A DNA stretch of 64,000 nucleotides from a virus. Below the pieces are notes generated by a model. It made no database searches, was not told where the DNA came from, and was given only the letters and a program-made list of their open reading frames with translations. The stretch's first letter is position 1. The number at the start of each line of letters is the position of its first letter. The translations under genes and the position numbers were made by a program. The stretch lies in the IMG/VR virus record IMGVR_UViG_3300023242_000006, positions 5,476-69,475 of that record; one strand, 5' to 3'. Positions 17,360 through 57,253 of this stretch are shown here, piece by piece.

Positions 17360-17929
17360 TTAAGAAATCATTTTAATTTGTTTTGAATTTAATACAACAT
17401 ACACATTAGATACGTTTGCATCTTTACCATACCCAACACCATCATGTACATTTTTAATAATAACCCCATCAAAACCATATTTAATTGCTATTTCAGGTGT
17501 TCTATTTGTTGTTATCCTATCAACCCCATGTTTTAACAAATACTTAATCGCATCTTCACTATTTTCTATACCTTCTACTGAAATATAATCCCAAGATTCA
17601 AAATTAGCATCCACTATTAATGGTTTAACTATTTTAAGATATACATCATATATTATTTTTTCACCATTTTCTTTTTTAGAACGATGTGTTGCATATTTAT
17701 CAGCTAGATTAATATCAGTAGTAAAATATGCATATTGATTTTCACTTGTTCTGAATGAATCAAATTTATTATTTGTGCCATGATAAACTATTAATGGATT
17801 CCCATTTTTATCAACAACTTTACTATTACCAAACCATTCTCGAAAATTATCATTCAAATTGTTATTAATTGTTTTCTGTTCATTTAAATATTCACGTATA
17901 GTCGTTGCTATAAATTTCCTTAGTTCCAT
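17360..17929 (-). CDS. Hypothetical protein (189 aa). I suspect an ADP-ribosyltransferase-like fold but cannot confirm it
   Basis: VYHGT..F...YFTTD..ESWDY..EGIENSE segments. This is a weak impression only. Confidence 0.3.
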   Translation of the reverse strand: MELRKFIATTIREYLNEQKTINNNLNDNFREWFGNSKVVDKNGNPLIVYHGTNNKFDSFRTSENQYAYFTTDINLADKYATHRSKKENGEKIIYDVYLKIVKPLIVDANFESWDYISVEGIENSEDAIKYLLKHGVDRITTNRTPEIAIKYGFDGVIIKNVHDGVGYGKDANVSNVYVVLNSKQIKMIS

Positions 17930-30433: not shown

Positions 30434-30877
30434 TTAATCAGTGTTTCTTTCTAAGTCTCTTTTTAAGTCTTTTTCTTTGATGGAGTGTTTTTTATCATAT
30501 AAGTGTTTACCTTTACCCAAACCAATGTTAACCTTGATAAACCCAGTGTTTGATACTATAATTTCAATAGGTACAATAGTCAACCCCTTTTGCGATAAAC
30601 TTTTATCTAACTTAAAGATTTCTTTTTTCTTCATAAGAAGCTTTCTATCTCTTAGCGGTAAATGATTGTTATGTTTACCACCTTCTTTGTGTTCAGCAAC
30701 GTGCATACCTTTAATAAACAACTCACCATTGGAGATGTAACAATAAGCCTCAACAATAGAAGCCTTACCATTCCTAATAGACTTAACCTCAGACCCAACC
30801 AAGACGATTCCCGATACAAAAGTTTCGATAATCTCATACTCAAATCTCGCTTTGCGATTAGTTAAAATAACTTTCAT
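30434..30877 (-). CDS. smpB: SsrA-binding protein SmpB
   Basis: MKVILTNRKARFEYEIIETFVSGIVLVGSEVKSIRNGKASIVEAYCYI is the canonical SmpB N-terminus. Start trimmed so that the promoter motif at 30886-30895 lies upstream. Confidence 0.8.
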   Translation of the reverse strand: MKVILTNRKARFEYEIIETFVSGIVLVGSEVKSIRNGKASIVEAYCYISNGELFIKGMHVAEHKEGGKHNNHLPLRDRKLLMKKKEIFKLDKSLSQKGLTIVPIEIIVSNTGFIKVNIGLGKGKHLYDKKHSIKEKDLKRDLERNTD

Positions 30878-30954
30878 AATATACAAAGGTACTAAATAAT
30901 TTCTAATTATACAATTTATTTACTTATTTAATTTTTATAACTATATTTATATTT

Positions 30955-31083
30955 ATGAAAACAGATACAACTAAACTCAACATCACCCTTCCAACAGAGT
31001 TAATTAAAAAAGTAAAAGAAGGTAATTATAACCGTACTCAGTTATTAGTTAGTCTTTTAAAAAATTATATTAACAAAAAGTAA
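30955..31083 (+). CDS. Ribbon-helix-helix (CopG/Arc-like) small protein
   Basis: MKTDTTKLNITLPTELIKKVKEG... Short basic protein. Confidence 0.4.
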   Translation: MKTDTTKLNITLPTELIKKVKEGNYNRTQLLVSLLKNYINKK

Positions 31084-31159
31084 AATAATTAAATTATTTT
31101 ACGGTTTTTTCACCGTTTTCATTGTTTCATGATATTTATATGTATACAAACAAAATATT

Positions 31160-31318
31160 ATGAAAAAAGACAAATTATCACCAAAAGAGAGAAAACAAAC
31201 CATAAGTATCCAGATTCCTAATGAATTAATAATTCATTTAGATGTAATTAATAATAAGAGTAAATTCTTCGAATGGTTATTAATTGAACATTTTAACACT
31301 TTAAAAAATGGAAAATAA
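31160..31318 (+). CDS. Ribbon-helix-helix-like small protein; overlaps the start of the downstream endonuclease gene
   Basis: ..KQTISIQIPNELIIHLD.. Its stop overlaps the ATG at 31308. Confidence 0.4.
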   Translation: MKKDKLSPKERKQTISIQIPNELIIHLDVINNKSKFFEWLLIEHFNTLKNGK

Positions 31319-32258
31319 AACTGAAAATTTTATTTCAAAAGCTAAATTAATACATGGTGATAAATATGATTATTCAAAAGTTAACTATATTAATAAAAGA
31401 ACTAACGTTAAAATAATTTGTTCTGAACATGGTGTTTTTGAACAATTAGTACATAACCATTTAAAAGGTAATGGTTGTATTAAATGTTCTGGAAAAGGTT
31501 TAACTAATGAAGAATTTATTAATAAATGTAATATAGTTCATAAAAATAAATTTAATTATTCATTGGTAGATTATAAAAATTGTTATGAAAAAATTAAAAT
31601 AATTTGCCCAATACATGATAAATTTGAACAAACACCAAGTTCTCATATTAGTGGTGTTGGTTGTTGGAAGTGTTTTAATGAGGATAGAACCACATCAAAT
31701 AATGAGTTCATATTAAAAGCCGAAAAAGTTCATAGCGATAAATATAATTATTCTAAAATTATTTATTTAAATAGTAAAGTTAATATCACAATTATTTGTC
31801 CAATACATGGTGACTTTGAACAAACACCTAATATGCATTTAAAAGGTTGTGGTTGCCGTAAATGTGGTTATATAACGGTGTCTAAAAAAGCAATTAATAA
31901 TTCACATAGTTTTTCACTATCAAGTTGGAAAAATATTATATCTAAAAACATAAAGGCTAAACCAATGTTATATATTATTAAATGTTATAATGATACTGAA
32001 GAATTCATTAAAATAGGTATAACAATAAACAACTTAAAAGGAAGATACCCTAGTAATAAACATATGCCTTATAAATATGATATAATATTAACACATGAAG
32101 CTGAACCAGAATTAGTGTTTAACATAGAAAAAGCGTTACACAGGTATTTTAAAAAAATTAAATACACCCCGACTATAAAATTCCATGGTATGGGTGAGTG
32201 TTATTATATAAAAGATAAACCAGAAATTTTAAACTATTGTAATAAACAATTAAATTAA
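31308..32258 (+). CDS. Putative homing endonuclease: three zinc-ribbon repeats plus a C-terminal T5orf172 (GIY-YIG-like) domain
   Basis: The repeat [10 protein letters not shown]..IICxxHGxFEQxPxxHLKGxGCxKC occurs three times. C-terminus [18 protein letters not shown].......YDIIL.HEA....[11 protein letters not shown]. It sits on the plus strand, opposite to all its neighbours. Confidence 0.6.
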
Positions 32259-32397
32259 TTTTCTTTAACTTCTGAACCCTGTAATTGAATACCAGCAGTA
32301 TATTTTTCTAGAATGAAATATTCAAAATATGCTTTCTTGTTAGAACAAATTTTATTCATTTTTTATGTGTTTTTAAATATAAAAGGTATTTAAATAG

Positions 32398-32471
32398 TGT
32401 CCACAACAGGAGTCGAACCTGTGACCTATCCCACATTGGGGGAGTGCTCTAACCAACTGAGCTATGTGGAC
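32398..32471 (-). tRNA. tRNA (74 nt) with textbook acceptor, D and T arms, and an anticodon loop CCAATGT that lacks U33
   Basis: Minus strand GTCCACA-TA-GCTCAGTTGGTTAGAGC-A-CTCCC-CCAATGT-GGGAT-AGGTC-ACAGGTTCGACTCCTGT-TGTGGAC-A. The anticodon would formally be AAU, so the identity is unresolved. Confidence 0.7.
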
Positions 32472-32521
32472 TAATTGGAGGCGTTGCTTTTACGGTTCGT
32501 TTCTCCATTATAAAAACTATT

Positions 32522-33337
32522 TTACTCTAAGTTCTTCAAAAGCACTGGTGCACCTACACCAAAATAATTATTTTGACCATAAATAGACTTTCCATGTTTT
32601 TTAAAGCCTTCTGCAATAATCCTTTCATTCTCTACACGTTGTAGTTCCAACATTTTAGGTTGAGATAGAATATCTTTAGTTTTCGCATCGTAGAGAGCAG
32701 ATTCAAAATCTCCTTTTGATTTAGCAATTCTTGCTGCCGCTAAATTCTTTTGCTCTTCCTCTTTTTTTGAAGCCAACTCATTCTTCCCTATTTGTACTGC
32801 TGTTTCCGTAGCTAGTTTAGATACTTCTAGTGGAATGTCCACATCAGTAATTCTCACACGCTTAAACTCCACAAAAAATTCTGGCAACTCTTGTTGTAAT
32901 ATCTTACTTAGCGCTTTTTCGGCCACACCTCTTTGGTGTCTGTTCAAGTCTGTTGCTGAATATTGTGGCACAACTTCTTTGGCTGCGGAAGATAAAGAAC
33001 TCTCAATTTTTATATTTACATCGTTTATCTTTGTGTGTAAATGTTGTAATTGGTTCGGATTCAGATTATAGTCTAAAGATAATTGAACTTTAGTTACCAT
33101 GTCGTTTTTATCATTAAACTCAAAAACCTTCACAATAGTATGCTCCCTAACATCATACTCGACCATCTCATCCCAAACCCAATGGAAACCTCCATTCATC
33201 CCCTCTGGGTAAATTTTATTCATGTTGGTCTCTCCACCCCAACTAACCTCGACTCCTTTATGTCCCGAATCGACAGTTGTACAACCTATTAACAACAATA
33301 ATGTTAATACACCTAATAAACCTAAAAATTTCTTCAT
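32522..33337 (-). CDS. SPFH/band-7 (prohibitin/HflC-like) lipoprotein
   Basis: Lipobox LLLIGCTT, then GHKGVEVSWGG..YD.R and a long coiled C-terminal region typical of SPFH. Confidence 0.6.
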   Translation of the reverse strand: MKKFLGLLGVLTLLLLIGCTTVDSGHKGVEVSWGGETNMNKIYPEGMNGGFHWVWDEMVEYDVREHTIVKVFEFNDKNDMVTKVQLSLDYNLNPNQLQHLHTKINDVNIKIESSLSSAAKEVVPQYSATDLNRHQRGVAEKALSKILQQELPEFFVEFKRVRITDVDIPLEVSKLATETAVQIGKNELASKKEEEQKNLAAARIAKSKGDFESALYDAKTKDILSQPKMLELQRVENERIIAEGFKKHGKSIYGQNNYFGVGAPVLLKNLE

Positions 33338-34073
33338 TTTACTTTTGTTTTGTTAATTTGTAAAAAAAATAATCTAATAATTTCCACATTAACGCAAGTG
33401 GTACGAAAATTGGCCATGTAATTGTAATCCCTACAATCTTCCAGAACGCCTGTGTATAAACCAAATCATCATAGCTGTCTCTACTCTCCATCTCACGAGA
33501 ATACTTTTTGTAAGAGAAATAGAACGCTAAAAACGTTGCGAATAAATAAATAAAAATCATACTAATCTTTTTTTCTTGTTCTTTTAATAAATACGTATGT
33601 CAACCAAAAGACATATACAACGGCAACGATTGCCAATAACCCTAATGCTCCTTTCATAATTTTGTTTTTGAGTTTTATAAAGGTCGCTCAAACCTATCTA
33701 ATTTTATTTTATAAAGGTAATACTAATTTTATTGTCACCCTAATTTTTTAGCTAAAAAAGAATAAAAATAGAATTTTATCAAGACATTATATATTATGCT
33801 ACCACGTATAAGTTAGGTTCACTATATAAAACTCTGTTTATTCTTTTAATTAAAATATTTCAGGTAACGGCATCCAAGCTATGACTTCATCATTAATAAA
33901 GTAGCCATCATCTGAAGACCACTCTTCAAAATCACTTCCGTCCATAAAACCTATATAACATACACCTATTTTAATATCCTTACCTTTGGTTAATACTAAC
34001 AACCTATCTGTTTTTTTCCCATCCCAATTACCTGTTTCCCAAGCGTTTGGTTTACCTCTGTTCCATCCCATAA

Positions 34074-34370
34074 TTATTTTCTTTTAATTGTTTTTCCATC
34101 TTTATTGTTGTTTTGTTTTAATACTTTTTTGTTTTTCTTTGGCCACATACCTTCACAGTTACTTCGTTCATCCCAACACCATCTAAGTGTTCTAGCAACA
34201 ACCACATTGGTTGAATGTACATCACAACCCGATTCCAATAGCTTGGCAAACTCTCTTGTTGCTCGTCTATCCATCTTATGAGTAACTGCCACCATAACGG
34301 CACCATCACATTTAGAACATGTAGCTACTTGAACCTTGACTTTACTTAAGTATTCTTCTTGATTTTCCAT
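34074..34370 (-). CDS. Hypothetical Cys-containing protein
   Basis: ORF of 98 aa. The promoter motif lies 2 nt upstream (34373-34382). Confidence 0.45.
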   Translation of the reverse strand: MENQEEYLSKVKVQVATCSKCDGAVMVAVTHKMDRRATREFAKLLESGCDVHSTNVVVARTLRWCWDERSNCEGMWPKKNKKVLKQNNNKDGKTIKRK

Positions 34371-34412
34371 GATACAAAGGTAGATATAAATTACTTTATA
34401 TCCTAATAAAAA

Positions 34413-35108
34413 TTAAAGTTTTTTTGCCGTGGGTATTAAATCGTTGATTTCTAGGTATTCACCAGTAGTACCAATTGTGTCAATACCAATAATATTATTG
34501 TTAATGGTTAGTTTTTTTAATGTAGAATGACCTACAACACAGGTAACCCCATCAATCATATCTTTATATAGAGATGGTATTCTAACCCATATAGGTGTTT
34601 GAGTAATATCATTACCAGATTGGTCAAAATTGTCACCCATAGTGAATCTAAAAGCGGATTTATTGTTAACAAATAATTGATTAATAGAATTTTCTAAATC
34701 GTTTAAGTTAATATCATAGAAACCAGCCCATGTTTTTGTCACACCAGCATGTGTAAACACATATTTGTCATAGACAAAACACATTTGAACCAGTCCATAG
34801 GTAACTGCTGGCTCTAATATTTCATTGATATCTGTGAATTTAAAAGGGTTAAACCCAGAATATTTTTCTTGGACATCTTTTAAGTAATGAAAATCATGGT
34901 TTCCTAGTAGTAAAACTACTTGGTCCATGTTATTTTTCTTAAATTCTAATAATTCTTTGAAGTTTTCTATCTGTTGGTCGACAGTAATATCGTAATGGGT
35001 ATCAAAATAGTCACCGATGAATATAATTTTGTCAACATCTTTCTCTTTTGCTACTATTTCTTTCCATAATACTCTTCCATGAGTATCACCTAGTGCTATA
35101 ATTCTCAT
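34413..35108 (-). CDS. Ser/Thr phosphatase-like metallophosphoesterase (PP-lambda/ApaH family)
   Basis: GDTHG..., IFIGDYFD, GNHD motifs. Confidence 0.75.
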   Translation of the reverse strand: MRIIALGDTHGRVLWKEIVAKEKDVDKIIFIGDYFDTHYDITVDQQIENFKELLEFKKNNMDQVVLLLGNHDFHYLKDVQEKYSGFNPFKFTDINEILEPAVTYGLVQMCFVYDKYVFTHAGVTKTWAGFYDINLNDLENSINQLFVNNKSAFRFTMGDNFDQSGNDITQTPIWVRIPSLYKDMIDGVTCVVGHSTLKKLTINNNIIGIDTIGTTGEYLEINDLIPTAKKL

Positions 35109-35123
35109 AATTTTACTAATTAG

Positions 35124-35225
35124 TGGTACATCGTATAGGAATCGAACCTATGTTACCGCAAGCGATTGGTACTTAATCTTCCGATGTGCTCTCATTTCGG
35201 CATTCTACCATTAAACTAACGATAT
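35124..35225 (-). tRNA. tRNA-like element A (encodes CCA; good T-arm; about 98 nt if the distal 5' acceptor strand is used, or a 60-nt minimal form)
   Basis: 3' end ..ATAGGTTCGATTCCTAT-ACGATGT-ACCA. Complementary 5' strands are ACATCGG at 35181-35187 or ATATCGT at 35219-35225. Confidence 0.45.
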
Positions 35226-35336
35226 GTTTGGTTATATTATATGGTGGTCTATCACCACAATGTTTTCAATAGTACTGTTTTATGTGTGCCTCACGTGATT
35301 ACTCACATCAATGTCGCTTTAATAATATAACCTAGA

Positions 35337-35408
35337 AACTCATACTGGATTCGAACCAGCGTCTGCGGGCTCAACGCCCACCATAGTGTCCACTCTACCA
35401 ATGAATCA
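35337..35408 (-). tRNA. tRNA (72 nt) with anticodon loop CGTTGAG (formally UUG, Gln-like, but G at position 33)
   Basis: GATTCAT-TG-GTAGAGTGGACACTAT-G-GTGGG-CGTTGAG-CCCGC-AGAC-GCTGGTTCGAATCCAGT-ATGAGTT-T. Confidence 0.55.
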
Positions 35409-35505
35409 ACTATCACTATGTCGCTCGGCAAAGTTAAACGTGATAGAAAGGATTATAACCGTCTGAAAGTTTGCCGACCTTCATGTTGCTATTCCCCAAT
35501 TTTGT

Positions 35506-35603
35506 GCGAGAGGGTGGACTCGAACCACCGACACCCAGTCCCTAGTTGTTCCCTTGTACTTCGGGCTAAAGACCTTAGCGTTTACCACTTCGCCACTCTC
35601 GCA
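35506..35603 (-). tRNA. tRNA-like element C (98 nt): perfect 7-bp acceptor stem GCGAGAG/CTCTCGC, 3-bp D-stem, good T-arm, but no canonical anticodon stem
   Basis: GCGAGAG-TG-GCGAAGTGGTAAACGC-...48 nt...-GGTGGTTCGAGTCCACC-CTCTCGC-A. Confidence 0.45.
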
Positions 35604-35931
35604 AATTACTAGTCTTTCCTAGTTGTCAGAGGTTTTCCCTTCTACCATCGGTTCTGGCACACATCACCGAAAACAAGCTTTGCCTTTGTAAACTTCGTCA
35701 CCGTAAAACTCTCTGGCCCCTCTTATTTGATGTTCTTGGTCAGTTAAGTATCTCAAAGCGCTAAGCTTTTTAACTAACCAAAAACCCACAAGAGATGTTT
35801 CGTTCAAATCCAGACCATCATGTTTCTACTGACTAATAACCTCACACTGAAAGCGTACCCCGTGTTATTGGTTTTCGACAAGAGGAAATAAGATACAAAT
35901 CTCCCCACTCTGCTGTTGATTTGTGGTTGGG

Positions 35932-36020
35932 AAAGGACTCGAACCTCTCTGTAGGGTGCTACCCGTGCCAACACCTTCCATCGGAATCGAACCGACCTTC
36001 TCCAAGCCAACCAAATTGAC
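35932..36020 (-). tRNA. tRNA-like element D (about 89 nt) containing two T-arm-like hairpins (GGTCGGTTCGATTCCGA and AGAGGTTCGAGTCCTTT)
   Basis: Acceptor GGTTGGC/CCCAACC with one mismatch. Confidence 0.35.
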
Positions 36021-36344
36021 TTTACTTTACAAAGTCTAAGTAGGTTTAGTTGCAGACTTTCAAAACCTATACGTCTATAGGTCTCCTTCTTCTGAGTGCT
36101 TCTTTTCACAGAGTTTACCTCTATTGGTATGTTATCCCAGTTTTCAACACAAAACCAATGTGTTAGCAATCGTGGGGAGAACGGGATTCGGACCCGCAAT
36201 CTCTAGGTTATGCCCCCAGCGAATAATTTTCTTTCTAAATGTTAGTAACCACCTCTTCAAGTTGTACACCTATCCGATTTTAATCTAACACGTTAAACAA
36301 AAGAAACTCCAATCATTCTTCCTCCCTAACGGTTTTTGTAGACA

Positions 36345-36445
36345 AGACTGAATTTGAATCAGTACCGCCAAGCTAGCCACGCTCGGATTGGGTGTTTAAT
36401 GAGATTTGCCCACACCTCCAGCCATTATTGTGTCTACTGATTTAA
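36345..36445 (-). tRNA. tRNA-like element G (101 nt): perfect acceptor GTAGACA/TGTCTAC, T-arm ACTGATTCAAATTCAGT
   Basis: Direct reading. The internal domain does not fold as a standard anticodon arm. Confidence 0.4.
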
Positions 36446-36992
36446 GATTCTCCTAGAACCACCGCTCCTACGAAGCCAGCTCAGTTTTTCCACCACTTGT
36501 CTAATATTTGCCATCTTCACAACACGATGAGTAGCGTACATGCACGAGGATATTTCACCTCTTTAGGAACTCGTACTCCCTACTATTTTCGGTCTAGCCG
36601 ACCAGCGCTACCTCTAATCAACAAACGCCATTTGTGTTTGACTATAGTGTCTGAACATACCAAGTTCATAAGTTTTGATTACATCTAAGCCGCTAAGCCT
36701 AATATCACGCACCAGACCTTACTGGTATCAGTGTGGTTAACACTACTTGTTGACTTTGAACAAATATTTTAATAAATCACATATCACCAAGAATGTATAA
36801 GTTATATAAGCCCAAACCCTCATACACCGCCTAGCTTAACACCCTTATAAAACTTTGCTCAAATTACCTTATGAGACTTACATTCTTTCTACAGTTAAGT
36901 TTACAACTTATCTTACTTAACAAACATAACACCTCTTGTAGTATTGTAACTAACTTATTACTTGTTTGTCTTTCTATATGTGATTAATATGA
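36446..36992 (-). ncRNA. Roughly 550-nt noncoding leader between the promoter motif at 36993-37002 and tRNA-like element G; no ORF
   Basis: The promoter motif is followed by no minus-strand ORF. The track ORF 36497..36688 (+) looks spurious. GC content is moderately raised. Confidence 0.35.
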
Positions 36993-37055
36993 TACAAAGG
37001 TACTAACTCTTTTTTAAAAATGCAAGTATTTTGTATCATTTTTTTTGTTTTTTAT

Positions 37056-44496: not shown

Positions 44497-45021
44497 TTAA
44501 TGTCTATGTGCTGGAACTAAATTAATTTTAAAACTCGTTAATCGACCAGCTTTAACCAACTTATCACCAAATTCTTGAAATATTGGGATATGCTCCTTAC
44601 GGTCATCCCAAGCTTCTAATTCATTTACGTTAGCATATTTTTCTAACAATGATTCCATTGTTTTTATTTTAGCAACATCAGTACTACCACCTCTGTTGAA
44701 ATGGTACTCATCGAATATTAACCCTTTTGCGTCTAAGATTTTCTTTACCAAGTCACCTAGCTTCACTATTCGACCAGTCAACATAACCATACATGTGTTT
44801 GCGTTAACTTTCTCTTTCTTATATGCTGAAGTAACCATTGGCACCGTTGGCATATCAAAGATATCCATATCTAAGCTGAAAGGTTGTCCCCACCATCCAG
44901 GGAAAGGCCAAACCTTTCCAGTTTTTTCTTGGTATTCTTTTTTACCAAATTCTGGAAGAGGTGTCATTAATAAAGTGCCGTCAAAATCGAAAACAGCTAG
45001 TCTAGTTATTTTTTTTTCCAT
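44497..45021 (-). CDS. HAD-superfamily hydrolase
   Basis: Motif I VFDFDGTL. Confidence 0.6.
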   Translation of the reverse strand: MEKKITRLAVFDFDGTLLMTPLPEFGKKEYQEKTGKVWPFPGWWGQPFSLDMDIFDMPTVPMVTSAYKKEKVNANTCMVMLTGRIVKLGDLVKKILDAKGLIFDEYHFNRGGSTDVAKIKTMESLLEKYANVNELEAWDDRKEHIPIFQEFGDKLVKAGRLTSFKINLVPAHRH

Positions 45022-50778: not shown

Positions 50779-50996
50779 TACAAATCAAAACTAAGACTAC
50801 CACCTGTGTCATTAAAAAAATTGTTCGGTATTAACCCATGTTCAGCTAGACAAGAAATAACTATTTGTTTCATCATATATGAATTACCCGTAATCAAGGT
50901 TGCGTTAGAAGTGTTATTTTGAATACATAACCAAATAAACTCATCAACTGTCTTAACAACATCTTCGTGTTTTACACCATGCAAATCTAAAGTCAT
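50778..50996 (-). CDS. Smr domain protein
   Basis: LDLHGVKHEDVVKTVDEFI.....ATLITGNS. Confidence 0.6.
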   Translation of the reverse strand: MTLDLHGVKHEDVVKTVDEFIWLCIQNNTSNATLITGNSYMMKQIVISCLAEHGLIPNNFFNDTGGSLSFDL

Positions 50997-51469
50997 TTAT
51001 TTATTGTTTCTAAAATTTTATCTATACAAGCAACTTGTGTTTCATGAAGTAAGTCTCTAGCTTCATCTAAAGTAACCCATTTATAACCATCCATTTCTGG
51101 AAAACCACCTCGTTCAGCTGGAACGTTAGAATTACATTTAAGTTCTTGCTCACCCCAATTAAATTTTGAGTCCCTTTTTTCTAAGTACAAAAAAGGATAA
51201 ACAATTTTTTTCTTATGTCCGTAATTAACACCTAGCATTGGAAAAATATCAAAATCAGTAGAACCAGATAAATCTAGGTTTGTTTCCTCATACGTTTCAC
51301 GCAAGGCTCCTTCTAAGAATGTTTCATTTTCTTCAACCTTACCCTTTGGAATACTCCAAAAATTAGGTTTATGGTTTGTCGGGTGTGCTATTAATAATTG
51401 TTTATTTTTTCTTACAATAAACAAACCAGCAGCTATCGTTTTCATCATTTTAAATGATTTTAGTACCAA
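50993..51469 (-). CDS. NUDIX hydrolase
   Basis: Nudix box GKVEENETFLEGALRETYEETNL. Confidence 0.75.
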   Translation of the reverse strand: MVLKSFKMMKTIAAGLFIVRKNKQLLIAHPTNHKPNFWSIPKGKVEENETFLEGALRETYEETNLDLSGSTDFDIFPMLGVNYGHKKKIVYPFLYLEKRDSKFNWGEQELKCNSNVPAERGGFPEMDGYKWVTLDEARDLLHETQVACIDKILETINK

Positions 51470-51782
51470 CTAACGCCTCATACCATTCTTCACCGCCAGA
51501 AATATTCTTTGGTGGCAAAATCATTGCTTGACTTAATACCCCTTTAATTTCAAAAGGCGCTAAATTCGTTACAAAATTTGTTGTAAAATTAATGAATTCT
51601 TCTGGTTTATGCGTTTTACCTAAATTAGTAAAAACACTTCTAATATCACCATCACCAAAATCTACAATCATTTTAATACCATAGCTTTTTGGTATTGATG
51701 TCGCTTCTGTTATTCGACCAACTTTAATTTCTAGTTTGCTCTCGATTTCTAAGAACTCGTCAAAACTAATTTCTTTTTTCAT
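51450..51782 (-). CDS. tRNA-binding domain protein (CsaA/EMAP-like)
   Basis: FLEIESKLEIKVGRITEA..IPKS.YGIKMIVDFGDG is the OB-fold tRNA-binding signature. Confidence 0.6.
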   Translation of the reverse strand: MKKEISFDEFLEIESKLEIKVGRITEATSIPKSYGIKMIVDFGDGDIRSVFTNLGKTHKPEEFINFTTNFVTNLAPFEIKGVLSQAMILPPKNISGGEEWYEALVGTKII

Positions 51783-51940
51783 CTATGTAGAATTGTTCAG
51801 TAATTATTTTAATTTGTTTCTCGTTAGATTCAATAGCTCTATTAATTAAATCATCATTGATAGAACCTAACATAATTTTAAGTAACCTATTTGATTCTTG
51901 TAATGCTTCTTTAAAAGCTTTTAAATGCGATATCGATACT

Positions 51941-52372
51941 TTATACATTTATTAAATTCATTTTAGTTAATATTTCTTCTACTTTAACCCAGTCAACAAA
52001 TGGTCTAGGTGAAATTGCAAGGTCTATCTTCAAAGGGCAACCTAAAGCACTATCATCAATCATTAATGGAGCGTAGCTTTTAGGTGATGTTGTCCAATTC
52101 AATTGAGTTGGATTCTTTTGAATTCCATATAGAGGAATGTCATTAGTTTTAAACCAATTAATTGCATCGGTTAAACCATGGTTATCTGTGGTACCATCTA
52201 ATCTATCAAAATTACTACCATCACTTCTCATCGTGAAAAGAATAAGTCTATGACCATTCTCAACTAATTTTTTTAAAACAGTAATTGCACCTATATCATA
52301 ACCAACTCTAGGGTAATCATGCGTAACAACAGTTCCGTCAAAATACAAGTTAATTTCAATTGTATTTTTCAT
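51941..52372 (-). CDS. HAD-like phosphatase (divergent motif I)
   Basis: NLYFDGTVVTHDYP. It shares a fold signature with 56821..57252 and 57254..57817. Confidence 0.4.
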   Translation of the reverse strand: MKNTIEINLYFDGTVVTHDYPRVGYDIGAITVLKKLVENGHRLILFTMRSDGSNFDRLDGTTDNHGLTDAINWFKTNDIPLYGIQKNPTQLNWTTSPKSYAPLMIDDSALGCPLKIDLAISPRPFVDWVKVEEILTKMNLINV

Positions 52373-52417
52373 ACTACAAAGGTACTAAGATTATTTTAAA
52401 TACGCAAGTAAAAATAA

Positions 52418-52648
52418 ATTAAAATTACCTTTTGATTTCTATTTACCAGATTTTAATATTTGTATTGAATTTAACGGGATTCAACATTATAAAGTAGTTG
52501 AACATTTTGGTGGGGTTCAAGGGTTTAATTCTAGGAAAATTAATGATAAAATAAAAAGGGAATATTGTTTACTAAACAATATTCCACTTATTATTATTAA
52601 ATATAATGACAATGTTGGTGATAAATTAACTTATTCAAAAGTAGTATA
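52418..52648 (+). pseudogene. C-terminal remnant of a PD-(D/E)XK homing endonuclease domain
   Basis: The plus frame reads LPFDFYLPDFNICIEFNGIQHYKVVEHFGGVQGF..IIIKYND. It matches the C-terminus of 49570..50457 and has no N-terminal part. Confidence 0.55.
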
Positions 52649-54244
52649 ACCCAACTTACCGTCTTTATCTAGCATAAAATTTATGTGTTGGGCTCGACCA
52701 TCTGTGTGGATAATAACATGTGATTGTAACCATGAGCTGGCACCTCTGTTATAACCCACCCTTAATTTTGTACTAGTACCAACAGCCAATGCTCCGTCCT
52801 TTCTACCAGGCGAGTGATAATGACCAACCACAATTTTAGTATTTAATTTTCTAAATTGTAATAACGAACCTCGACTACCATTTGAACCTATGTCACCATG
52901 TTGACCTAATTCCCAATCTTTAACCCGATAAGAAGCGCTTCGACCCAACGTAATAAACTTAGGAAACTTCTGGTTGATGATACTTGGAATTACTCCTTTG
53001 ACATTATAAGGGTCGTTAGAGTATTGCTCTAACAACATATCAGACATTTTCATGTAAAGTCTAGAATTTTTGTACGTTGGTTGTTTCTTCCAATCTTCAT
53101 TCTTAAGCCAACGGTCTAAGAAATCATCATGATTACTTCTGACAATAACCACGTTATCAAACTTTTCAAATGCTTTTAACGATTCTAACATAAAATCAAC
53201 CTCTTTACCTAAGTCATTAGTGCCAGATATTTCTTTACCATACTGAATGAAAGGGTCTTTAATCTCATGATGGGTAATTGAAGACCCATCAAATACGTCA
53301 TGTAATATAACGTGTTGTGGTTTTACTCTTTCAAATAAACTAAGTGTTGTATCTAAAACGTCTTGGTCATGATGTCCATAGTGAATATCACCTAATATAG
53401 CAGCAGCGAATTTAGTTACTTCACTTACCTCACCTTTTTCAACTCGATAATATAAATCAGTAAAATTACCTGTTTTATCATCAGCGGTTACTTGTCTAAC
53501 GAAAAATGTGTCATCATTTTTAATCTCAACAATAACGAATCCAAATGTATGGTGGAACTCGCCAGTTTTACCAGCTTTAGAATCAGTATAATTCTTTTTA
53601 GTTACAGCACCAGTAGTGGTCATCATTTTAGGTTTGTTACCTTCTAATACTGAAATCATTTCTAACTGAACCTTTGGGCTACCAAACACGCATGAATTAA
53701 TACCACTCAACGCTTGTAAACCAGTCATAGGGTTCACAGCCGTTGGTTGAATCTTAATATCTGACATAATCGATACGTACTTATGTATATCATGTCTGTT
53801 AGCATCTAGGTATGGTAATACCTCTGAAACCCAAAATTCTGATTCTTCTTGTTGATTTGTCCACATACTAGTAGGGTTTCTATACCTACCAGCTATGATA
53901 TGAATATCAGCAGCGATAAATTCAGCATAAGCTTCTAAGTTTTTCATCAAACCAGTATGAACAGGCGTATTGTTCTGAGCCCAACTTATAATAAAACGTT
54001 TTTTAGTCCCGTCATGGACTCTTGTTTTGGCTTTTACATACTGTTCTGGTTCAATTTCAACTTTTTCTTTGAAGTTTAATTTTTTAAACCATTTTCTAAC
54101 GGTTCTCTCTGATAACCCTAAGTCATTACCAATTTTAATTGCTAATTTCTCAACTGTTAAATTATTTTCTAACCTATTAACATATTCTAACCTAAATTTC
54201 TCAATTTCAATTTCAGTTAAATCTTTAAATTTAATTTTTACCAT
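52631..54244 (-). CDS. Calcineurin-like metallophosphoesterase with N-terminal HTH region
   Basis: GDIHYGHHD, HDVFDG, RSNHDD, GHYH motifs. N-terminus LSERTVRKWFKK. Confidence 0.65.
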   Translation of the reverse strand: MVKIKFKDLTEIEIEKFRLEYVNRLENNLTVEKLAIKIGNDLGLSERTVRKWFKKLNFKEKVEIEPEQYVKAKTRVHDGTKKRFIISWAQNNTPVHTGLMKNLEAYAEFIAADIHIIAGRYRNPTSMWTNQQEESEFWVSEVLPYLDANRHDIHKYVSIMSDIKIQPTAVNPMTGLQALSGINSCVFGSPKVQLEMISVLEGNKPKMMTTTGAVTKKNYTDSKAGKTGEFHHTFGFVIVEIKNDDTFFVRQVTADDKTGNFTDLYYRVEKGEVSEVTKFAAAILGDIHYGHHDQDVLDTTLSLFERVKPQHVILHDVFDGSSITHHEIKDPFIQYGKEISGTNDLGKEVDFMLESLKAFEKFDNVVIVRSNHDDFLDRWLKNEDWKKQPTYKNSRLYMKMSDMLLEQYSNDPYNVKGVIPSIINQKFPKFITLGRSASYRVKDWELGQHGDIGSNGSRGSLLQFRKLNTKIVVGHYHSPGRKDGALAVGTSTKLRVGYNRGASSWLQSHVIIHTDGRAQHINFMLDKDGKLGYTTFE

Positions 54245-54550
54245 TATTTTTTAAAATTTTATTTATTTTATTTATTTTAGTTAATAAATTATCTGTTTTT
54301 TCATTGTATTTTATTATTATTAACTTTATTTTATTATTGTCACAGTAATCTTTTTTTATTTTATCTTTCTTCTGTTGTTCTTTTAAACCACTTGTACCAC
54401 CAAATAACATAAAAAATACCAGCTATTACACTTGCGATGACAATATACTTAAAAACCACCACAAACATAAAGACTCCAAAAAAAACGCCTTGAATAACGA
54501 ATACCGTTAACAGACTAATCAATAGGTATAATGAAAATTTTGCCTTCATT

Positions 54551-54910
54551 TTAATTTATTTTTTTCCACATTCGGTCATGAAATTTTGTTTTGTACGTTC
54601 CCAACTCGAAACTATTGTTGTGTAATATGATATCTAAAGCCATCGGTAATTCAGAATATAATTTATCCCACTCGGCTTTTTGTTCGTCAGAATACTCCTT
54701 AATTTCTTCCACATTAAATGGGTCAAAATATGCTGGCATACCATTCAACATAAGGTCAATCTCTTCGTAAAGACTATCACCATTAAATGGTGGCATATAT
54801 TCTTCACCATCATGTTTAACACCAGAAATAATGTTATCTTTCATCGACCAACGTAATTTTGACAACAATGTTACGTGTTCTTTTTTTAATTCTAATTTTA
54901 GTACTGACAT
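54551..54910 (-). CDS. Hypothetical protein
   Basis: ORF of 119 aa. Confidence 0.45.
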   Translation of the reverse strand: MSVLKLELKKEHVTLLSKLRWSMKDNIISGVKHDGEEYMPPFNGDSLYEEIDLMLNGMPAYFDPFNVEEIKEYSDEQKAEWDKLYSELPMALDIILHNNSFELGTYKTKFHDRMWKKIN

Positions 54911-54914
54911 TCGG

Positions 54915-55298
54915 TTATTTTTTTACATAAGAATCCAATAATACTTGGACCCGTTTATTATCTTTTTTAGCTTTAGCTTGTTCTTTCTCAACCCTACTAT
55001 CTATATACTCACAAATAGCTATCGCCCTTAAATTGTTATAAAATTTACCATTATGTTCGTTTCCTTTAACCACAAAAGCAACTGTTACTACTTCATTAAG
55101 GCTAAATCTTTCTAATGTTTCAACGTTTTCATTAATAAATTCTAACTTAACAATCTCTGGGTATTGTTCTTCTGTTTTTACAACAAATTCTCTCTTTTTA
55201 AAGTTACCAAATTCCTGTATCTCTCCAATTTGTTTAATTGTACCATCTAAAAAATAATGCATATATTTAATTTTGTTCGTTAATAATTCTTTCCACAA
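54915..55298 (-). CDS. Hypothetical protein
   Basis: ORF of 127 aa. Confidence 0.45.
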   Translation of the reverse strand: MWKELLTNKIKYMHYFLDGTIKQIGEIQEFGNFKKREFVVKTEEQYPEIVKLEFINENVETLERFSLNEVVTVAFVVKGNEHNGKFYNNLRAIAICEYIDSRVEKEQAKAKKDNKRVQVLLDSYVKK

Positions 55299-55995
55299 TT
55301 TCTGTCACCCCTTCAACAGCACTTTTCTCTACGTACTCAATGTTTAAATCAAGTGTGTCTAAATCATGACTAGGGTTAGGGTCAACGTATATTACGTTAA
55401 AACCTTTCGGTAGGTTATCAAAAAAACTTAAGGTATAACCAATTTGTAAACTAGTTCCAACAATTATTACAATATCAGCTGTTAAAAAAGCATCATAAGC
55501 TTTATTTACATCAAAAGGATATTCACCAAACCATACAATGTGTGGTCTTAATTGTGCACCATACTTCTCGCATTTATCACCAATATTAATATCAGAATAA
55601 CCAATGTCAATAGAATCTAACTTAACTTTTAAAAGATTACCAGTTAAATAAGAACTCCTAGCTTTAGTTAACTCACCATGCAAGTGAATGATGTTAGTAG
55701 ACCCACCTCTTTCGTGCAAATCATCAACATTTTGTGTAACGATAGTTACATCAAAGTCTTCTTCTAACCTAGCCAATGCTTTATGTGCATTGTTAGGTTC
55801 AACACTTGGCATTTGTCTTCTGCGGTCATTGTAAAAGTTAAGTACTTTCTCACGGTCTTTTCTCCAACCATCAAGAGTACAAACTTCTTCAATCTTATGG
55901 TTTTCCCAAAGGCCATCTACCAAATCTCTGAATGTATCAACACCAGATTCTTTGCTTATTCCAGCACCTGTAAATATAACTACTTTCTTTTTCAT
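55267..55995 (-). CDS. Sir2-family NAD+-dependent deacylase or ADP-ribosyltransferase (no Zn-ribbon Cys4)
   Basis: GAGISKESGVDTFRD, TQNVDDLHERGG, catalytic LHGEL. Confidence 0.75.
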   Translation of the reverse strand: MKKKVVIFTGAGISKESGVDTFRDLVDGLWENHKIEEVCTLDGWRKDREKVLNFYNDRRRQMPSVEPNNAHKALARLEEDFDVTIVTQNVDDLHERGGSTNIIHLHGELTKARSSYLTGNLLKVKLDSIDIGYSDINIGDKCEKYGAQLRPHIVWFGEYPFDVNKAYDAFLTADIVIIVGTSLQIGYTLSFFDNLPKGFNVIYVDPNPSHDLDTLDLNIEYVEKSAVEGVTEIVERIINEQN

Positions 55996-56297
55996 TACTT
56001 CTGAACAGCCGATTTAACCCCAAGAATCATGTTTTTGATAACTTTAACCATTAAAAAAAACCCACCGATGAAACCGAAGTCATACCACCCACCGTTATTA
56101 TTAACAGCATAGATAGCTACATCATTCCAGATAAGACTACCAATAAATGATGGTAGCATAATCATACCATGCCAAGTACCACCCCAAAAGCCATATACAT
56201 GCTCACTAGGATTCATATATTGGATTTGTGAAACATCAGCACATCCAGTCATTAATAATAGCGTAAAAGCCGCTAAAACGTAAATTAAATTTTTCAT
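55995..56297 (-). CDS. Membrane lipoprotein
   Basis: Lipobox LLMTGCADV plus TM segments. Confidence 0.45.
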   Translation of the reverse strand: MKNLIYVLAAFTLLLMTGCADVSQIQYMNPSEHVYGFWGGTWHGMIMLPSFIGSLIWNDVAIYAVNNNGGWYDFGFIGGFFLMVKVIKNMILGVKSAVQK

Positions 56298-57252: not shown

Positions 57253-57253
57253 A

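What the first reader, a model, noticed from the sequence alone, without database searches (positions are those of the whole stretch)
35110..36450. GC-rich cluster of tRNA-like genes with atypical architecture, next to a phage smpB
At least seven T-arm signatures (GGTTCGAATCC-type, reverse-complemented on the plus strand) with matching acceptor stems lie on the minus strand. One element (35337..35408) folds as a normal 72-nt tRNA but has G at position 33. Three others (A, C, G) have perfect or near-perfect 7-bp acceptor stems and good T-arms, are about 98-101 nt long, and have internal regions that do not form a canonical anticodon arm. Element D contains two T-arm-like hairpins. The separate tRNA at 32398..32471 also lacks U33. 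Either these carry short insertions or introns, or they are tRNA-derived decoys or other tRNA-like RNAs. The phage also encodes SmpB, IF-3 and a tRNA-binding protein, so a phage-encoded tmRNA or other tRNA-like regulatory RNA should be looked for here.
Basis: partly seen in the sequence, partly recalled or inferred. Interest (0 to 1): 0.7.

Follow-up and report, generated by a model that had tools for sequence, protein, structure and literature searches.

The report
Phage array of tRNA-shaped cargo RNAs
A large phage of Bacteroidota carries a 1.7-kb non-coding array of RNAs that keep the upper half of the tRNA fold but replace or enlarge the anticodon arm; one belongs to an RNA family, absent from Rfam 15, that sits in dozens of phage tRNA clusters, and their function is unknown.

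Summary
Window 35127..36790 (minus strand) is a GC-rich, ORF-poor block. It holds seven T-arm hairpins, against about 0.01 expected for the six that pass the strict rule.

Standard tools do not turn these into ordinary tRNAs:
- A (99 nt) and C (98 nt) match the Rfam tRNA model only with 39-42 nt in place of the anticodon loop.
- B (72 nt) has G33.
- D has two T-arm hairpins.
- F (155 nt) and G (164 nt) are acceptor-plus-T-arm brackets around large inner domains.

No tmRNA, RNase P RNA, group I intron or other Rfam family is present.

Six related phage loci show compensatory changes in the tRNA-like stems. The inserted "cargo" is more conserved than the tRNA body: A's 45-nt arm is 41-43/45 identical in a phage whose tRNA body is about 44% identical. 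B's anticodon differs between near-identical relatives (UUG, UUU, UGG).

D belongs to a covariation-supported family with no Rfam 15 match. A pattern built from D matched 55 IMG/VR stretches but only 1 of 185,579 species genomes. ARAGORN often mislabels members as a 93-nt tRNA-Pro.

Best reading: co-transcribed, non-decoding RNAs built on a tRNA scaffold, like T4 RNAC. Their function is unknown.

The parts
36503..36790 (-). U: structured 5' leader of the array, not tRNA-like. It contains the hairpin CCAG-UAAGGU-CUGG and the motifs GCUUAGCGGCU and UGUAAUCAAAAC. A Bacteroidota -7-like element (TAnnTTTG type) lies just upstream.
   Evidence: About 79% identical in L014, L063, L058/L059 and L064 over 36617..36770, while the neighbouring 75-aa protein is only 75% identical at the protein level. 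No Rfam match. The promoter reading is an inference from sequence.
36339..36502 (-). G: 164-nt tRNA-bracketed RNA. It has a 7-bp acceptor stem (AGACAAG/CUUGUCU), U8-G9, and a 3-bp D-stem-like helix enclosing a three-way insert. It then has an extra hairpin, an anticodon-arm-like hairpin with invariant loop GUGGCUA, a 4-nt variable region, a T arm and discriminator A.
   Evidence: RNAalifold on 5 sequences from 3 lineages gives 43 pairs, 100% paired, 13 with compensatory changes. Slid controls give 0-2. ARAGORN detects it only at a relaxed threshold, as a 'tRNA with a 77-nt intron'.
36173..36327 (-). F: 155-nt tRNA-bracketed RNA. The acceptor stem is xGGGAGG/UCUCCCx with a mismatch at 1-72. The T arm is GCGGG UCCGAAU CCCGU, followed by discriminator A. 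The inner domain is about 115 nt.
   Evidence: Acceptor pairs 3-70 and 4-69 change G-C,G-C to U-A,A-U in L014/L063. The T stem changes C-G to U-A. The 3' minihelix gives a sub-threshold Rfam tRNA hit of 20.7 bits.
36013..36172 (-). F-D spacer: a variable cassette. It is replaced by unrelated sequence in the 93-97% identical relative L013.
   Evidence: 53% mismatch plus 57 gap positions, against 0-10% elsewhere.
35924..36012 (-). D: 89-nt member of a widespread phage RNA family. Order of parts: acceptor stem, a 9-12-nt linker with a conserved GG, T-arm-like hairpin H1 (loop UUCGANU), GGAAG, small hairpin H2 (loop with GG), hairpin H3 (loop UAGCN), the true T arm, then discriminator A.
   Evidence: Model R1 scores it 77.9 bits (E about 1e-19) over the full length. 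In the family alignment of 33 distinct sequences, 96.7% of cells pair, 16 of 24 pairs have compensatory changes, and 0 of 500 shuffles reach this. The helix that ARAGORN's 'tRNA-Pro(tgg)' fold needs is only 61.8% paired.
35603..35923 (-). D-C spacer. It is moderately conserved within the closest pair (8% substitutions against L013) and not alignable in L014. It ends in a small conserved hairpin (ACUAGGAAAGACUAGU) just upstream of C.
35505..35602 (-). C: 98-nt tRNA-like RNA with canonical acceptor, D and T arms. The anticodon arm is replaced by a 38-nt irregular hairpin: a 9-bp stem GGUCUUUAG/CUAGGGACU, then CCC-GAAGUACAA-GGG, with an AACAA bulge.
   Evidence: Rfam tRNA 41.8 bits with 42 nt unaligned. 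Only 0-4 substitutions across 5 loci in 3 lineages. Folding z-score -2.3. Model R2 finds only this clade at >120 bits; the next hits are ordinary tRNAs at <=44 bits.
35408..35504 (-). S1: spacer between C and B, about 97-99% conserved in all lineages that have it. A pseudoknot is possible (UCGGCAAA/UUUGCCGA plus CUAUCAC/GUGAUAG). It also contains a 16-codon ORF.
   Evidence: 1 substitution in 97 nt in both close pairs. Inverted repeat I1. The structure is an inference; there are too few changes to test covariation.
35336..35407 (-). B: 72-nt cloverleaf with loop CGUUGAG (G33, 'anticodon' UUG), a G1:U72 pair and discriminator U.
   Evidence: ARAGORN calls it tRNA-Gln; Rfam gives 40.3 bits. The loop is AUUUUAG in L013, CGUGGAG in L014 and CGUUGAG in L063, on an otherwise conserved body.
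35226..35335 (-). S2: structured spacer between B and A, closed by an 11-bp stem GGUUAUAUUAU/AUAAUAUAACC.
   Evidence: Inverted repeat I8 is 100% complementary. In L014 there is a compensatory U-A to C-G change in that stem.
35127..35225 (-). A: 99-nt tRNA-like RNA with canonical acceptor, D and T arms. Its 45-nt anticodon-arm replacement is CCG AAAUGRGARCA CAUC-GNRA-GAUK NAGUACCAAUCGCUUG CGG.
   Evidence: Rfam tRNA 43.5 bits with 39 nt unaligned. The acceptor, D and T stems carry 6 compensatory pairs. The cargo is 40-43/45 identical across lineages, while the body is 43-67% identical. This includes L121, a different phage. The tetraloop is GGAA, GUGA or GAAA, always GNRA.
32398..32471 (-). 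Separate 74-nt tRNA with loop CCAAUGU (C33, anticodon AAU). It lies in a 2.7-kb segment absent from L013.
   Evidence: Rfam tRNA 60.7 bits; ARAGORN calls it tRNA-Ile(aat).

Best explanation
The block is a co-oriented array of stable, non-decoding RNAs built on the tRNA fold. It is probably transcribed as one precursor.

Each tRNA-like element keeps the acceptor stem and T arm, and A, B and C also keep the D arm. This 'top half' is the part of a tRNA that RNase P, 3'-end processing and CCA addition, and T-loop-modifying enzymes recognise (established knowledge). Host tRNA-processing enzymes could therefore cut the elements out of the precursor, along with the structured spacers U, S1 and S2 between them, and the products would be as stable as tRNAs.

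The anticodon arm is no longer used for decoding. In A, C, F and G it is replaced or expanded by lineage-conserved cargo domains. In D it is replaced by a second T-loop hairpin. In B it is free to vary.

The cargo is proposed to be the working part: a binding surface for a protein or RNA involved in translation or in RNA damage and repair. Candidates encoded in the same window are SmpB, a Trbp111-type tRNA_bind protein, RNase R and the HAD_SAK RNA-repair proteins.

Shown here: the folds, their conservation, and D's membership of a family. Inferred: co-transcription, processing and stability. Not known: the target and the biological effect.
For: 1. The elements are not ordinary tRNAs.
2. The stems of the tRNA top half are under structural selection:
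- G has 13 of 43 pairs with compensatory changes.
- D's family has 16 of 24.
- A has 6.
- F has 2 in the acceptor stem and 1 in the T stem.
3. The cargo is conserved beyond the body. A's cargo is 41/45 and 43/45 identical to L121, whose body is 23-24/54 identical. C, insert included, has 0-4 substitutions across three lineages whose neighbouring protein is 75% identical. A's tetraloop stays GNRA.
4. The anticodon positions are not held: B reads UUG, UUU or UGG, and A reads GAG or GGG, among near-identical loci.
5. No terminator-like site lies on the minus strand inside the block. All elements share one orientation and nearly all have an A-C-N-A 3' trailer.
6. The spacers S1 and S2 are themselves conserved or covarying.
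7. There is a precedent in T4. RNAC (139 nt) lies in the tRNA cluster, and its ends form a 7-bp stem (two U:U mismatches) stacked on a canonical T arm around an inner domain of about 100 nt. Its role is still unknown (PMC3014915, PMC9697503).
8. D-family members sit inside ordinary phage tRNA arrays. The family is essentially phage-only: 55 IMG/VR stretches against 1 of 185,579 species genomes.
Against: - There are no expression, end-mapping or processing data.
- Co-transcription rests only on the absence of terminator matches and on shared orientation.
- Most elements are known from only 3-4 lineages, so the covariation counts are small and phylogenetically correlated.
- Structures for G and F were derived from the same alignments used to count pairs.
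- The D-family sequences were collected with a pattern that fixes both T loops and GGAAGGU, so conservation there is not informative.
- No target or partner has been identified. Cargo conservation would also be expected for a functional intron.
- ARAGORN can model A with an insert exactly at the canonical 37/38 intron position.
Confidence: 0.5

Rival explanations
1. A and C, and perhaps F and G, are real tRNA genes interrupted by short introns. The introns are removed by a phage or host activity, giving decoding tRNAs, as proposed for the 'enigmatic introns' of Lak megaphage tRNAs.
For: ARAGORN intron mode yields cloverleafs: A with a 28-nt insert after position 37, and C with a 23-nt insert in the anticodon loop. 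Lak phages are reported to carry tRNA introns (PMC6784885). They also encode an SmpB 46-48% identical to this one. The window encodes HAD_SAK RNA-repair domains.
Against: - No bulge-helix-bulge motif surrounds either junction (by inspection). Bacteria lack the splicing endonuclease (established knowledge).
- 23-28 nt is far below the size of a self-splicing intron, and there is no intron hit in Rfam.
- The inserts are better conserved than the exons.
- C would become a UAA suppressor, although TAA ends 62 of 69 long minus-strand ORFs and the standard code fits.
- A's mature anticodon would be GAG here and GGG in relatives, on the same class-I body.
- None of the 10 IMG/VR matches to A's predicted spliced junction lies in a tRNA.
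- No RNA ligase or endonuclease was recognised in the 64-kb window.
Confidence: 0.13
2. The cloverleaf members (B, the tRNA at 32398, and possibly A and C) are decoys for, or nuclease-resistant substitutes against, host tRNA-targeting defence nucleases. Their anticodon loops evolve quickly in an arms race.
For: B and the 32398 tRNA lack U33. B's loop changes at 3 of 7 positions against L013, and at the middle anticodon base between L014 and L063, which differ at only 12 positions in about 890 nt there. B's anticodons include UUU and UUG, which are classic targets of anticodon nucleases (established knowledge). The window is rich in counter-defence genes: NAMPT, NMNAT-Nudix, Sir2, Macro, NADAR, ART and HAD_SAK.
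Against: - It does not explain D, F, G or the conserved cargo of A and C.
- B's acceptor stem (G1:U72, U73) stays constant while its anticodon changes between three amino-acid families, so it cannot be a correctly charged substitute for all of them.
- The counts are too small for a rate test.
- No defence nuclease or host is known.
Confidence: 0.17
3. One or more elements act as a tmRNA-like partner of the phage SmpB: a tRNA-like domain that enters stalled ribosomes.
For: smpB lies next to the array here and in relatives. The window also encodes RNase R. F, G and D lack a normal anticodon arm, like the tRNA-like domain of tmRNA. A distant relative (L049) has a true tmRNA in its tRNA array.
Against: - No tmRNA was found by ARAGORN or Rfam.
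- No G3:U70 pair occurs in any window element (sequence).
- No conserved tag reading frame exists. Candidate frames break in relatives.
- The permuted pairing GGGGAGA/UCUCCCC is not kept in L014.
Confidence: 0.07
4. The block is a decaying tRNA cluster: pseudogenes with random insertions and mutated loops.
For: It has non-canonical loops, variable cassettes between elements and nearby homing-endonuclease genes.
Against: The stems show compensatory changes, the inserts are nearly invariant across lineages, and D belongs to a family found at 55 IMG/VR loci.
Confidence: 0.04

Closest known systems
Phage T4 RNAC (species 1 RNA, 139 nt), in the T4 tRNA gene cluster
   Same: It lies inside a phage tRNA cluster next to a homing-endonuclease gene. 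Its 5' and 3' ends form a 7-bp acceptor-like stem stacked directly on a canonical T arm (CCGGG UUCGAAU CCCGG), and they enclose a structured inner domain of about 100 nt. This is the architecture of F and G. Its function is unknown (PMC3014915, PMC9697503).
   Different: No sequence similarity is apparent. The T4 stem has two U:U mismatches. T4 has one such RNA, while this locus has several kinds, including forms with full D arms (A, C) and the double T-loop form (D).
'Enigmatic' introns in tRNA genes of Lak megaphages (Devoto et al. 2019, PMC6784885)
   Same: These are over-long tRNA genes in large phages of Bacteroidota that bacterial tRNA finders cannot classify. Their inserts are conserved between genomes. 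Those phages also encode SmpB.
   Different: In Lak phages, alleles with and without the insert exist and were used to define the insert. No empty allele was found here. Here the insert is more conserved than the tRNA body, and the predicted spliced anticodons make no coding sense. Splicing has been shown in neither case.
YrlA / bacterial Y RNAs (Rfam RF02553; Chen et al. 2014, PMC4201824)
   Same: These are non-decoding RNAs that mimic the tRNA D arm, T arm and acceptor stem. They occur in bacteria and phages and are substrates of tRNA enzymes; M. smegmatis YrlA is cleaved by RNase P RNA in vitro and undergoes CCA addition. A YrlA-like hit (40 bits, E=3e-7) lies about 420 nt from a D-family member in L072.
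   Different: In YrlA the RNA ends lie in the Ro-binding stem at the 'anticodon' side, so the topology is permuted. Here the ends form the acceptor stem. No YrlA hit occurs in the window at E<=10, and no Ro60/TROVE protein was recognised among the window ORFs scanned.
tmRNA tRNA-like domain
   Same: It has an acceptor stem plus T arm without an anticodon arm, and it works with SmpB, which is encoded next to this array.
   Different: No G3:U70 pair, tag reading frame or pseudoknot series is present, and neither ARAGORN nor Rfam detects one.
Engineered 'tRNA scaffold' for expressing RNAs in bacteria, and the tRNA-linked small RNAs of murine gammaherpesvirus 68 (both from my own knowledge, not checked here)
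   Same: The principle matches the proposal here: the anticodon arm of a tRNA is replaced by, or the tRNA is fused to, a cargo RNA, so that host tRNA enzymes process and stabilise it.
   Different: One is artificial and the other is eukaryotic and viral, with the cargo fused 3' rather than inserted. Neither is homologous.

Membership tests
Canonical decoding tRNA (Rfam RF00005) | Match to the tRNA covariance model at or above the gathering score (29 bits) | tested here: met
   A 43.5, C 41.8, B 40.3 and the 32398 tRNA 60.7 bits. F's minihelix scores 20.7. D and G have no hit, so the criterion is not met for D, F or G.
Canonical decoding tRNA (Rfam RF00005) | 5-bp anticodon stem with a 7-nt loop carrying U33 and a purine at 37 | tested here: not met
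   A and C have 39 and 42 nt in place of the loop. B has G33 and the 32398 tRNA has C33. D, F and G have no such arm at the canonical place, although G has a hairpin with loop GUGGCUA (U33 but U37).
Canonical decoding tRNA (Rfam RF00005) | Anticodon and identity elements held constant among close relatives | tested here: not met
   B reads UUG, UUU or UGG on one body. A reads GAG or GGG.
Canonical decoding tRNA (Rfam RF00005) | Aminoacylation and use on the ribosome | not testable with these tools
   Needs acylation assays or tRNA sequencing of infected cells.
tmRNA | Detection by ARAGORN or the Rfam tmRNA models | tested here: not met
   (relaxed threshold).
tmRNA | G3:U70 alanine identity pair in the acceptor stem | tested here: not met
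   Pair 3-70 is A-U (G), G-C (F, C), U-A (D), U:G (B) and A-U (A) in the window (sequences).
tmRNA | Conserved tag reading frame ending in a stop codon | tested here: not met
   Six-frame translation shows no frame kept in L013 or L014. The 16-codon ORF in S1 has no tag-like end.
RNase P RNA | Match to the Rfam RNase P models | tested here: not met
   No hit at E<=10 in 34900..37000 or at E<=1 in the window.
Intron-containing tRNA (protein-spliced, archaeal/eukaryal type) | Bulge-helix-bulge motif around the splice sites | tested here: not met
   By inspection of A and C with ARAGORN's junctions and the folds. C's junctions lie inside a 9-bp helix. No dedicated BHB tool was available.
Intron-containing tRNA (group I, bacterial type) | Self-splicing intron of about 200 nt or more with a group I core | tested here: not met
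   The inserts are 23-28 nt in A and C and 62-77 nt in ARAGORN's relaxed-threshold intron models of F and G. No Intron_gpI hit.
Intron-containing tRNA (any type) | Existence of insert-free alleles or spliced products | tested here: inconclusive
   None of the 10 IMG/VR matches to A's predicted spliced junction lies in a tRNA. Only one exact junction was tested, and there are no RNA data.
YrlA / Y RNA | Match to RF02553 and a Ro60 gene nearby | tested here: not met
   No hit in the region at E<=10. No TROVE domain in the scanned window ORFs.
T4 RNAC-like tRNA-bracketed stable RNA (an architecture, not a curated family) | The 5' and 3' ends form an acceptor-like stem stacked on a T arm, around a large inner domain, inside a phage tRNA-type cluster | tested here: met
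   F and G, compared with T4 rnaC. Homology was not tested. Stability and processing are not testable here.
   Window 35924..36012 scores 77.9 bits, E about 1e-19, over model positions 1-93. Ordinary tRNAs score <=31 bits.
   Most members have tRNA genes within a few hundred bases. The window copy lies in the tRNA-like array.

The most novel reading that the evidence does not exclude
Phages use the tRNA fold as a natural delivery scaffold. The top half recruits the host's tRNA processing and stabilising machinery. The anticodon arm is swapped for cargo modules, or in the D family for a second tRNA 'elbow'. These modules bind or mislead components of translation or of tRNA-directed immunity, such as elbow readers (RNase P, a Trbp111-type protein), SmpB, translation factors or ribotoxins.

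The cargos of A and C both carry an AGUA...GA(A/G) signature beside a capped hairpin. In C the sequence AGUAC-AAG-GGAAC resembles the sarcin-ricin loop AGUAC-GAGA-GGA(A/C)C. They could therefore be S-turn protein-binding platforms.

The D family would then be a new, widespread, phage-specific class of tRNA mimic.
Probability: 0.25. Interest if true: 0.8.

Novelty: new variant of a known kind. Interest (0 to 1): 0.62.

Why it matters
Phage tRNA clusters are usually read as codon-usage aids or as spares against tRNA-cleaving defences. This locus shows that part of what tRNA finders report, or silently miss, in such clusters is something else: stable RNAs that borrow the tRNA fold.

Three consequences follow.

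1. **Annotation.** ARAGORN labels many D-family members as a 93-94-nt tRNA-Pro(UGG) using a fold that covariation does not support. Phage tRNA inventories and codon-usage arguments are contaminated by such calls.

2. **An old question becomes approachable.** What T4 RNAC does has been unknown for fifty years. There is now a set of related architectures with clear conserved cargo. One family has dozens of natural sequence variants and a testable five-helix model.

3. **A candidate functional module.** The array sits beside smpB. The same 64-kb window also encodes RNase R, IF-3, a tRNA-elbow-type binding protein and RNA-repair and NAD-salvage genes. That suggests a role in the contest over the host's translation apparatus.

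Tried and rejected
1. **Permuted (two-piece) tmRNA.** F's 3' strand UCUCCCC could pair with GGGGAGA at about 35905. The pairing is lost in L014.

2. **Tag-like reading frames.** LKSLAL* in the D-C spacer and ANFQ...* or MKVG...HV* in S1 were considered. The first is broken by indels in L013. The others have no tag-like end.

3. **RNase P, GOLLD, ROOL, 6S, ribozymes.** No Rfam hit.

4. **Stop-codon recoding, to justify a UUA 'suppressor'.** Reassigning TGA or TAG adds little ORF coverage, and TAA is the main stop.

5. **rRNA mimicry.** blastn-short of the array against an E. coli rrn operon found only T-arm matches and chance 10-12-mers. The sarcin-ricin resemblance is at motif level only.

6. 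**Homologues in GenBank phages.** None by blastn.

7. **Synteny through neighbouring proteins.** Through the downstream phosphoesterase, 6 loci were found and none has the array. Through the upstream 75-aa protein, 42 loci were found, of which only L013 (the same contig as L012) and L014 carry the array.

8. **Metagenome scan with a U-leader pattern.** It added only L063 and L064; three other hits were chance.

9. **Wider families for C and G.** The exact-pattern scans and model R2 found only the same clade.

10. **The short form of G and the minihelix form of F.** Both were rejected on compensatory changes.

11. **The SmpB neighbourhood in Lak-B5 and in a 636-kb phage.** Nothing comparable lies next to smpB.


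Full report
**What is there**

Window 35100..36790 is GC-rich (0.39-0.46, against 0.27-0.34 in the flanks). It has no supported ORF. Every tRNA-like signal in it is on the minus strand.

A strict T-arm scan finds six hairpins there, where shuffles give 0.01. A seventh, G's, has an A-U closing pair.

ARAGORN in default mode calls only three genes: tRNA-Ile(aat) at 32397..32471, tRNA-Gln(ttg) at 35335..35407, and a 99-nt 'tRNA-???' at 35504..35602.

Rfam gives tRNA hits for four elements:

| Element | Bits | Note |
|---|---|---|
| 32398 tRNA | 60.7 | |
| A | 43.5 | 39 nt where the model has 11 |
| C | 41.8 | 42 nt where the model has 17 |
| B | 40.3 | |

There is also a sub-threshold minihelix hit in F (20.7 bits). 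No other family matches in the region at E<=10 or in the window at E<=1. ARAGORN's tmRNA mode finds nothing even at a relaxed threshold.

**Relatives**

GenBank phages hold nothing similar at the DNA level. IMG/VR and JGI metagenomes hold six related loci in three lineages beside the window:
- L012/L013, 93-97% identical
- L014 (with L056, L060) and L063, 75-87% identical
- L058/L059 and L064
.

A fourth source, L121, shares only element A. The element order is kept, but single elements and spacers come and go. Some spacers are swapped for unrelated sequence even between 93-97% identical genomes.

**Anatomy, 5' to 3' on the minus strand**

- **U**, 36503..36790: a conserved, non-tRNA leader.
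- **G**, 36339..36502: 164 nt.
- **F**, 36173..36327: 155 nt.
- A variable cassette.
- **D**, 35924..36012: 89 nt.
- A 320-nt spacer.
- **C**, 35505..35602: 98 nt.
- **S1**, 35408..35504.
- **B**, 35336..35407: 72 nt.
- **S2**, 35226..35335.
- **A**, 35127..35225: 99 nt.

Nearly every tRNA-like element ends with discriminator A followed by C-N-A, mostly ACAA. B ends with U and CUA.

The scan finds no terminator-like site on the minus strand inside the block. A Bacteroidota-type -7 box (TAnnTTTG, from established knowledge of that phylum) lies just upstream of U in L058/L059, with near-matches in the window and in L014. This promoter reading is an inference.

**Evidence that the folds are real**

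- **G.** The consensus fold has 43 pairs and every cell is paired. Thirteen pairs show compensatory changes, and slid controls give 0-2. The acceptor pair C4-G69 becomes U-A in L014.
- **F.** Two acceptor pairs and one T-stem pair change on both sides.
- **A.** Six pairs in the acceptor, D and T stems do so.
- **S2.** It is closed by an 11-bp stem with one compensatory change.

These counts come from few, related sequences. For G and F the structure came from the same alignment. They are good evidence for structure, but they are not statistics.

**Element D belongs to a large family**

I built a pattern from D's invariant parts: GGTTCGANTCCNNNGGAAGGT, then 18-44 nt, then GGTTCGA. It matches 55 stretches of IMG/VR and only one of 185,579 species genomes, on a 4.6-kb MAG contig.

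The 33 distinct sequences fit a five-helix model:
- acceptor stem
- T-arm-like hairpin H1
- small hairpin H2 with GG in its loop
- hairpin H3
- the true T arm

In the family alignment 96.7% of cells pair and 16 of 24 pairs have compensatory changes. None of 500 shuffles reaches this, and slid controls give 1-6. The window copy scores 77.9 bits over the full model, while ordinary tRNAs score 31 or less.

Members lie inside normal phage tRNA arrays. ARAGORN labels many of them 'tRNA-Pro(tgg)', 93-94 nt. The anticodon stem of that fold is only 61.8% paired, and one of its pairs never forms. Rfam 15 has no family for them.

One caveat applies. The pattern fixes both T loops and GGAAGGU, so nothing can be concluded from their constancy, and the true family may be wider.

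**The anticodon region is not used as an anticodon**

- B's loop is CGUUGAG here and in L063, AUUUUAG in L013 and CGUGGAG in L014, on a nearly constant body with a G1:U72 pair and U73.
- L014 and L063 differ at only 12 positions in about 890 nt of this part. One of those is B's middle anticodon base and two are in A's tetraloop.
- A's would-be anticodon is GAG here and GGG elsewhere.
- C's would-be spliced anticodon is UUA, yet TAA ends 62 of 69 long minus-strand ORFs and the standard code fits the window.

**The inserts are the conserved part**

A's 45-nt arm is 40/45 to 43/45 identical between lineages. This includes L121, whose acceptor, D and T stems are only about 44% identical. Its tetraloop is GGAA, GUGA or GAAA, always of the GNRA class.

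C, insert included, has 0-4 substitutions across three lineages. The neighbouring 75-aa protein is 75% identical in the two more distant ones.

No insert-free version of A's arm occurs in a tRNA context in IMG/VR.

**Interpretation**

The simplest account of all this is an operon of non-decoding RNAs built on the tRNA fold. The top half (acceptor stem, T arm and often the D arm) is the part recognised by RNase P, the 3'-end and CCA enzymes and the T-loop modifiers (established knowledge). It would let the host cut the precursor into stable pieces. The anticodon arm has been given over to cargo.

Phage T4 offers a direct precedent. RNAC (species 1 RNA, 139 nt) sits in the tRNA cluster. Its ends form a 7-bp stem next to a canonical T arm, enclosing an inner domain of about 100 nt. 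Its role is still unknown (PMC3014915, PMC9697503).

Bacterial and phage YrlA RNAs show that tRNA mimicry by non-decoding RNAs is widespread (PMC4201824). One YrlA-like hit lies close to a D-family member in L072.

What the cargo binds is not known. The gene context suggests translation or RNA damage control. It includes smpB next to the array here and in relatives, RNase R, IF-3, a Trbp111-type tRNA_bind protein, HAD_SAK RNA-repair domains and an NAD-salvage and ADP-ribose set. It also includes a T9SS sorting domain, which points to a Bacteroidota host.

**Rivals**

- **Short introns** (the Lak phage idea, PMC6784885) remain possible for A and C. The conservation pattern, the coding nonsense of the spliced products and the lack of any recognisable splicing motif or enzyme all argue against them.
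- **A decoy or nuclease-evasion role** fits B and the 32398 tRNA (no U33, fast-changing loop) and may coexist with the main model.
- **A tmRNA-like role and simple decay** are both poorly supported.

**Verdict**

The feature is real and was correctly spotted, though partly mis-delimited. It is not a tmRNA, RNase P RNA or an ordinary tRNA set. It is a new variant of a known but barely understood kind, the tRNA-shaped stable RNAs of phage tRNA clusters. It includes one previously uncatalogued, widespread family.

Noticed in passing
window 30434..32359: A 34-codon copy of the SmpB N-terminus (32255..32359, minus) is followed by a 316-aa plus-strand ORF with a T5orf172 domain and four cysteine-rich repeats (31308..32258). 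The complete smpB gene then follows (30434..30886, minus). The layout looks like the footprint of a mobile endonuclease gene that duplicated its target. It is the same in L013.
   Followed up: partly
window 32361..35105: This 2.7-kb segment holds a metallophosphoesterase, small ORFs, an SPFH protein and the C33 tRNA. It is missing from L013, which is otherwise 93-97% identical; there the array is only about 500 bp from the smpB fragment.
   Followed up: partly
L014:10148-10221; L058 (minus) and L059 about 7510-7583; L063: Relatives carry an extra 74-nt element E, with acceptor GGGAGUA/UACUUCC. It has G3:U70 and A73, which is the alanine identity set, and a hairpin with a 4-nt loop in place of the anticodon arm. 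It is absent from the window.
   Followed up: no
L049:2089-2465: A distant relative, found through the 75-aa protein, carries a normal tmRNA (tag GESQDFSMKNAA) inside a tRNA array.
   Followed up: no
L010:2290-2680 (minus): An unrelated 175-kb phage contig has three adjacent tRNA-like genes with 43-56-nt inserts that ARAGORN misses. The inserts and nearby intergenic regions share an ACAGCAAT motif. A large ORF with a DGSGSM (MIDAS-like) motif lies next to them.
   Followed up: no
L072:1908-2095: A YrlA-like (Y RNA) match of 40 bits (E=3e-7, below the gathering score) is immediately followed by a tRNA with a 20-nt D-loop insert. Both lie about 420-520 nt from a D-family member.
   Followed up: no
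L121:480-575: Next to the A-type element lies a second tRNA-like gene whose anticodon arm is extended and capped by a GUAA tetraloop.
   Followed up: no
L001:5920-5975: A minihelix of about 60 nt (acceptor UAGCAUA/UAUGCUA plus a T arm, with no D or anticodon arm) sits just upstream of the phosphoesterase homologue. It follows a 300-nt GC-rich non-coding stretch with a CCAG...CUGG hairpin like the one in U.
   Followed up: no
window 35433..35483 (minus), inside S1: A 16-codon ORF, MKVGKLSDGYNPFYHV, is kept in all relatives. The only changes are His to Tyr and the stop UAA to UAG. The lack of synonymous changes suggests RNA-level rather than protein-level constraint.
   Followed up: partly
alignment A10 columns 32 and 46 (D family): The variable sixth base of the H1 loop covaries with the third base of H2 (GC 23, GU 3, AU 1, CG 1, UA 1, UG 1). 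This may be a tertiary contact or an alternative pairing.
   Followed up: no
window 50993..62468: A dense set of NAD-salvage and ADP-ribose genes (NAMPT in two ORFs, NMNAT-Nudix, Nudix, Sir2, Macro, NADAR), and further upstream an ART-PolyVal ORF at 17360..17929. There are also two HAD_SAK RNA-repair domains (44497..45021, 57254..57817). Together these look like a counter-defence island.
   Followed up: partly
many D-family loci (L069-L119): ARAGORN reports numerous over-long class-I tRNAs (Glu 94 nt, Met 85-92, Gln 93, Asn 85-89, Ile 87) and 'tRNA-???' calls in these phage arrays. Model R2 also picks up tRNA-like matches of 100-160 nt. Insert-bearing tRNA-like genes seem common in phage tRNA clusters.
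   Followed up: no
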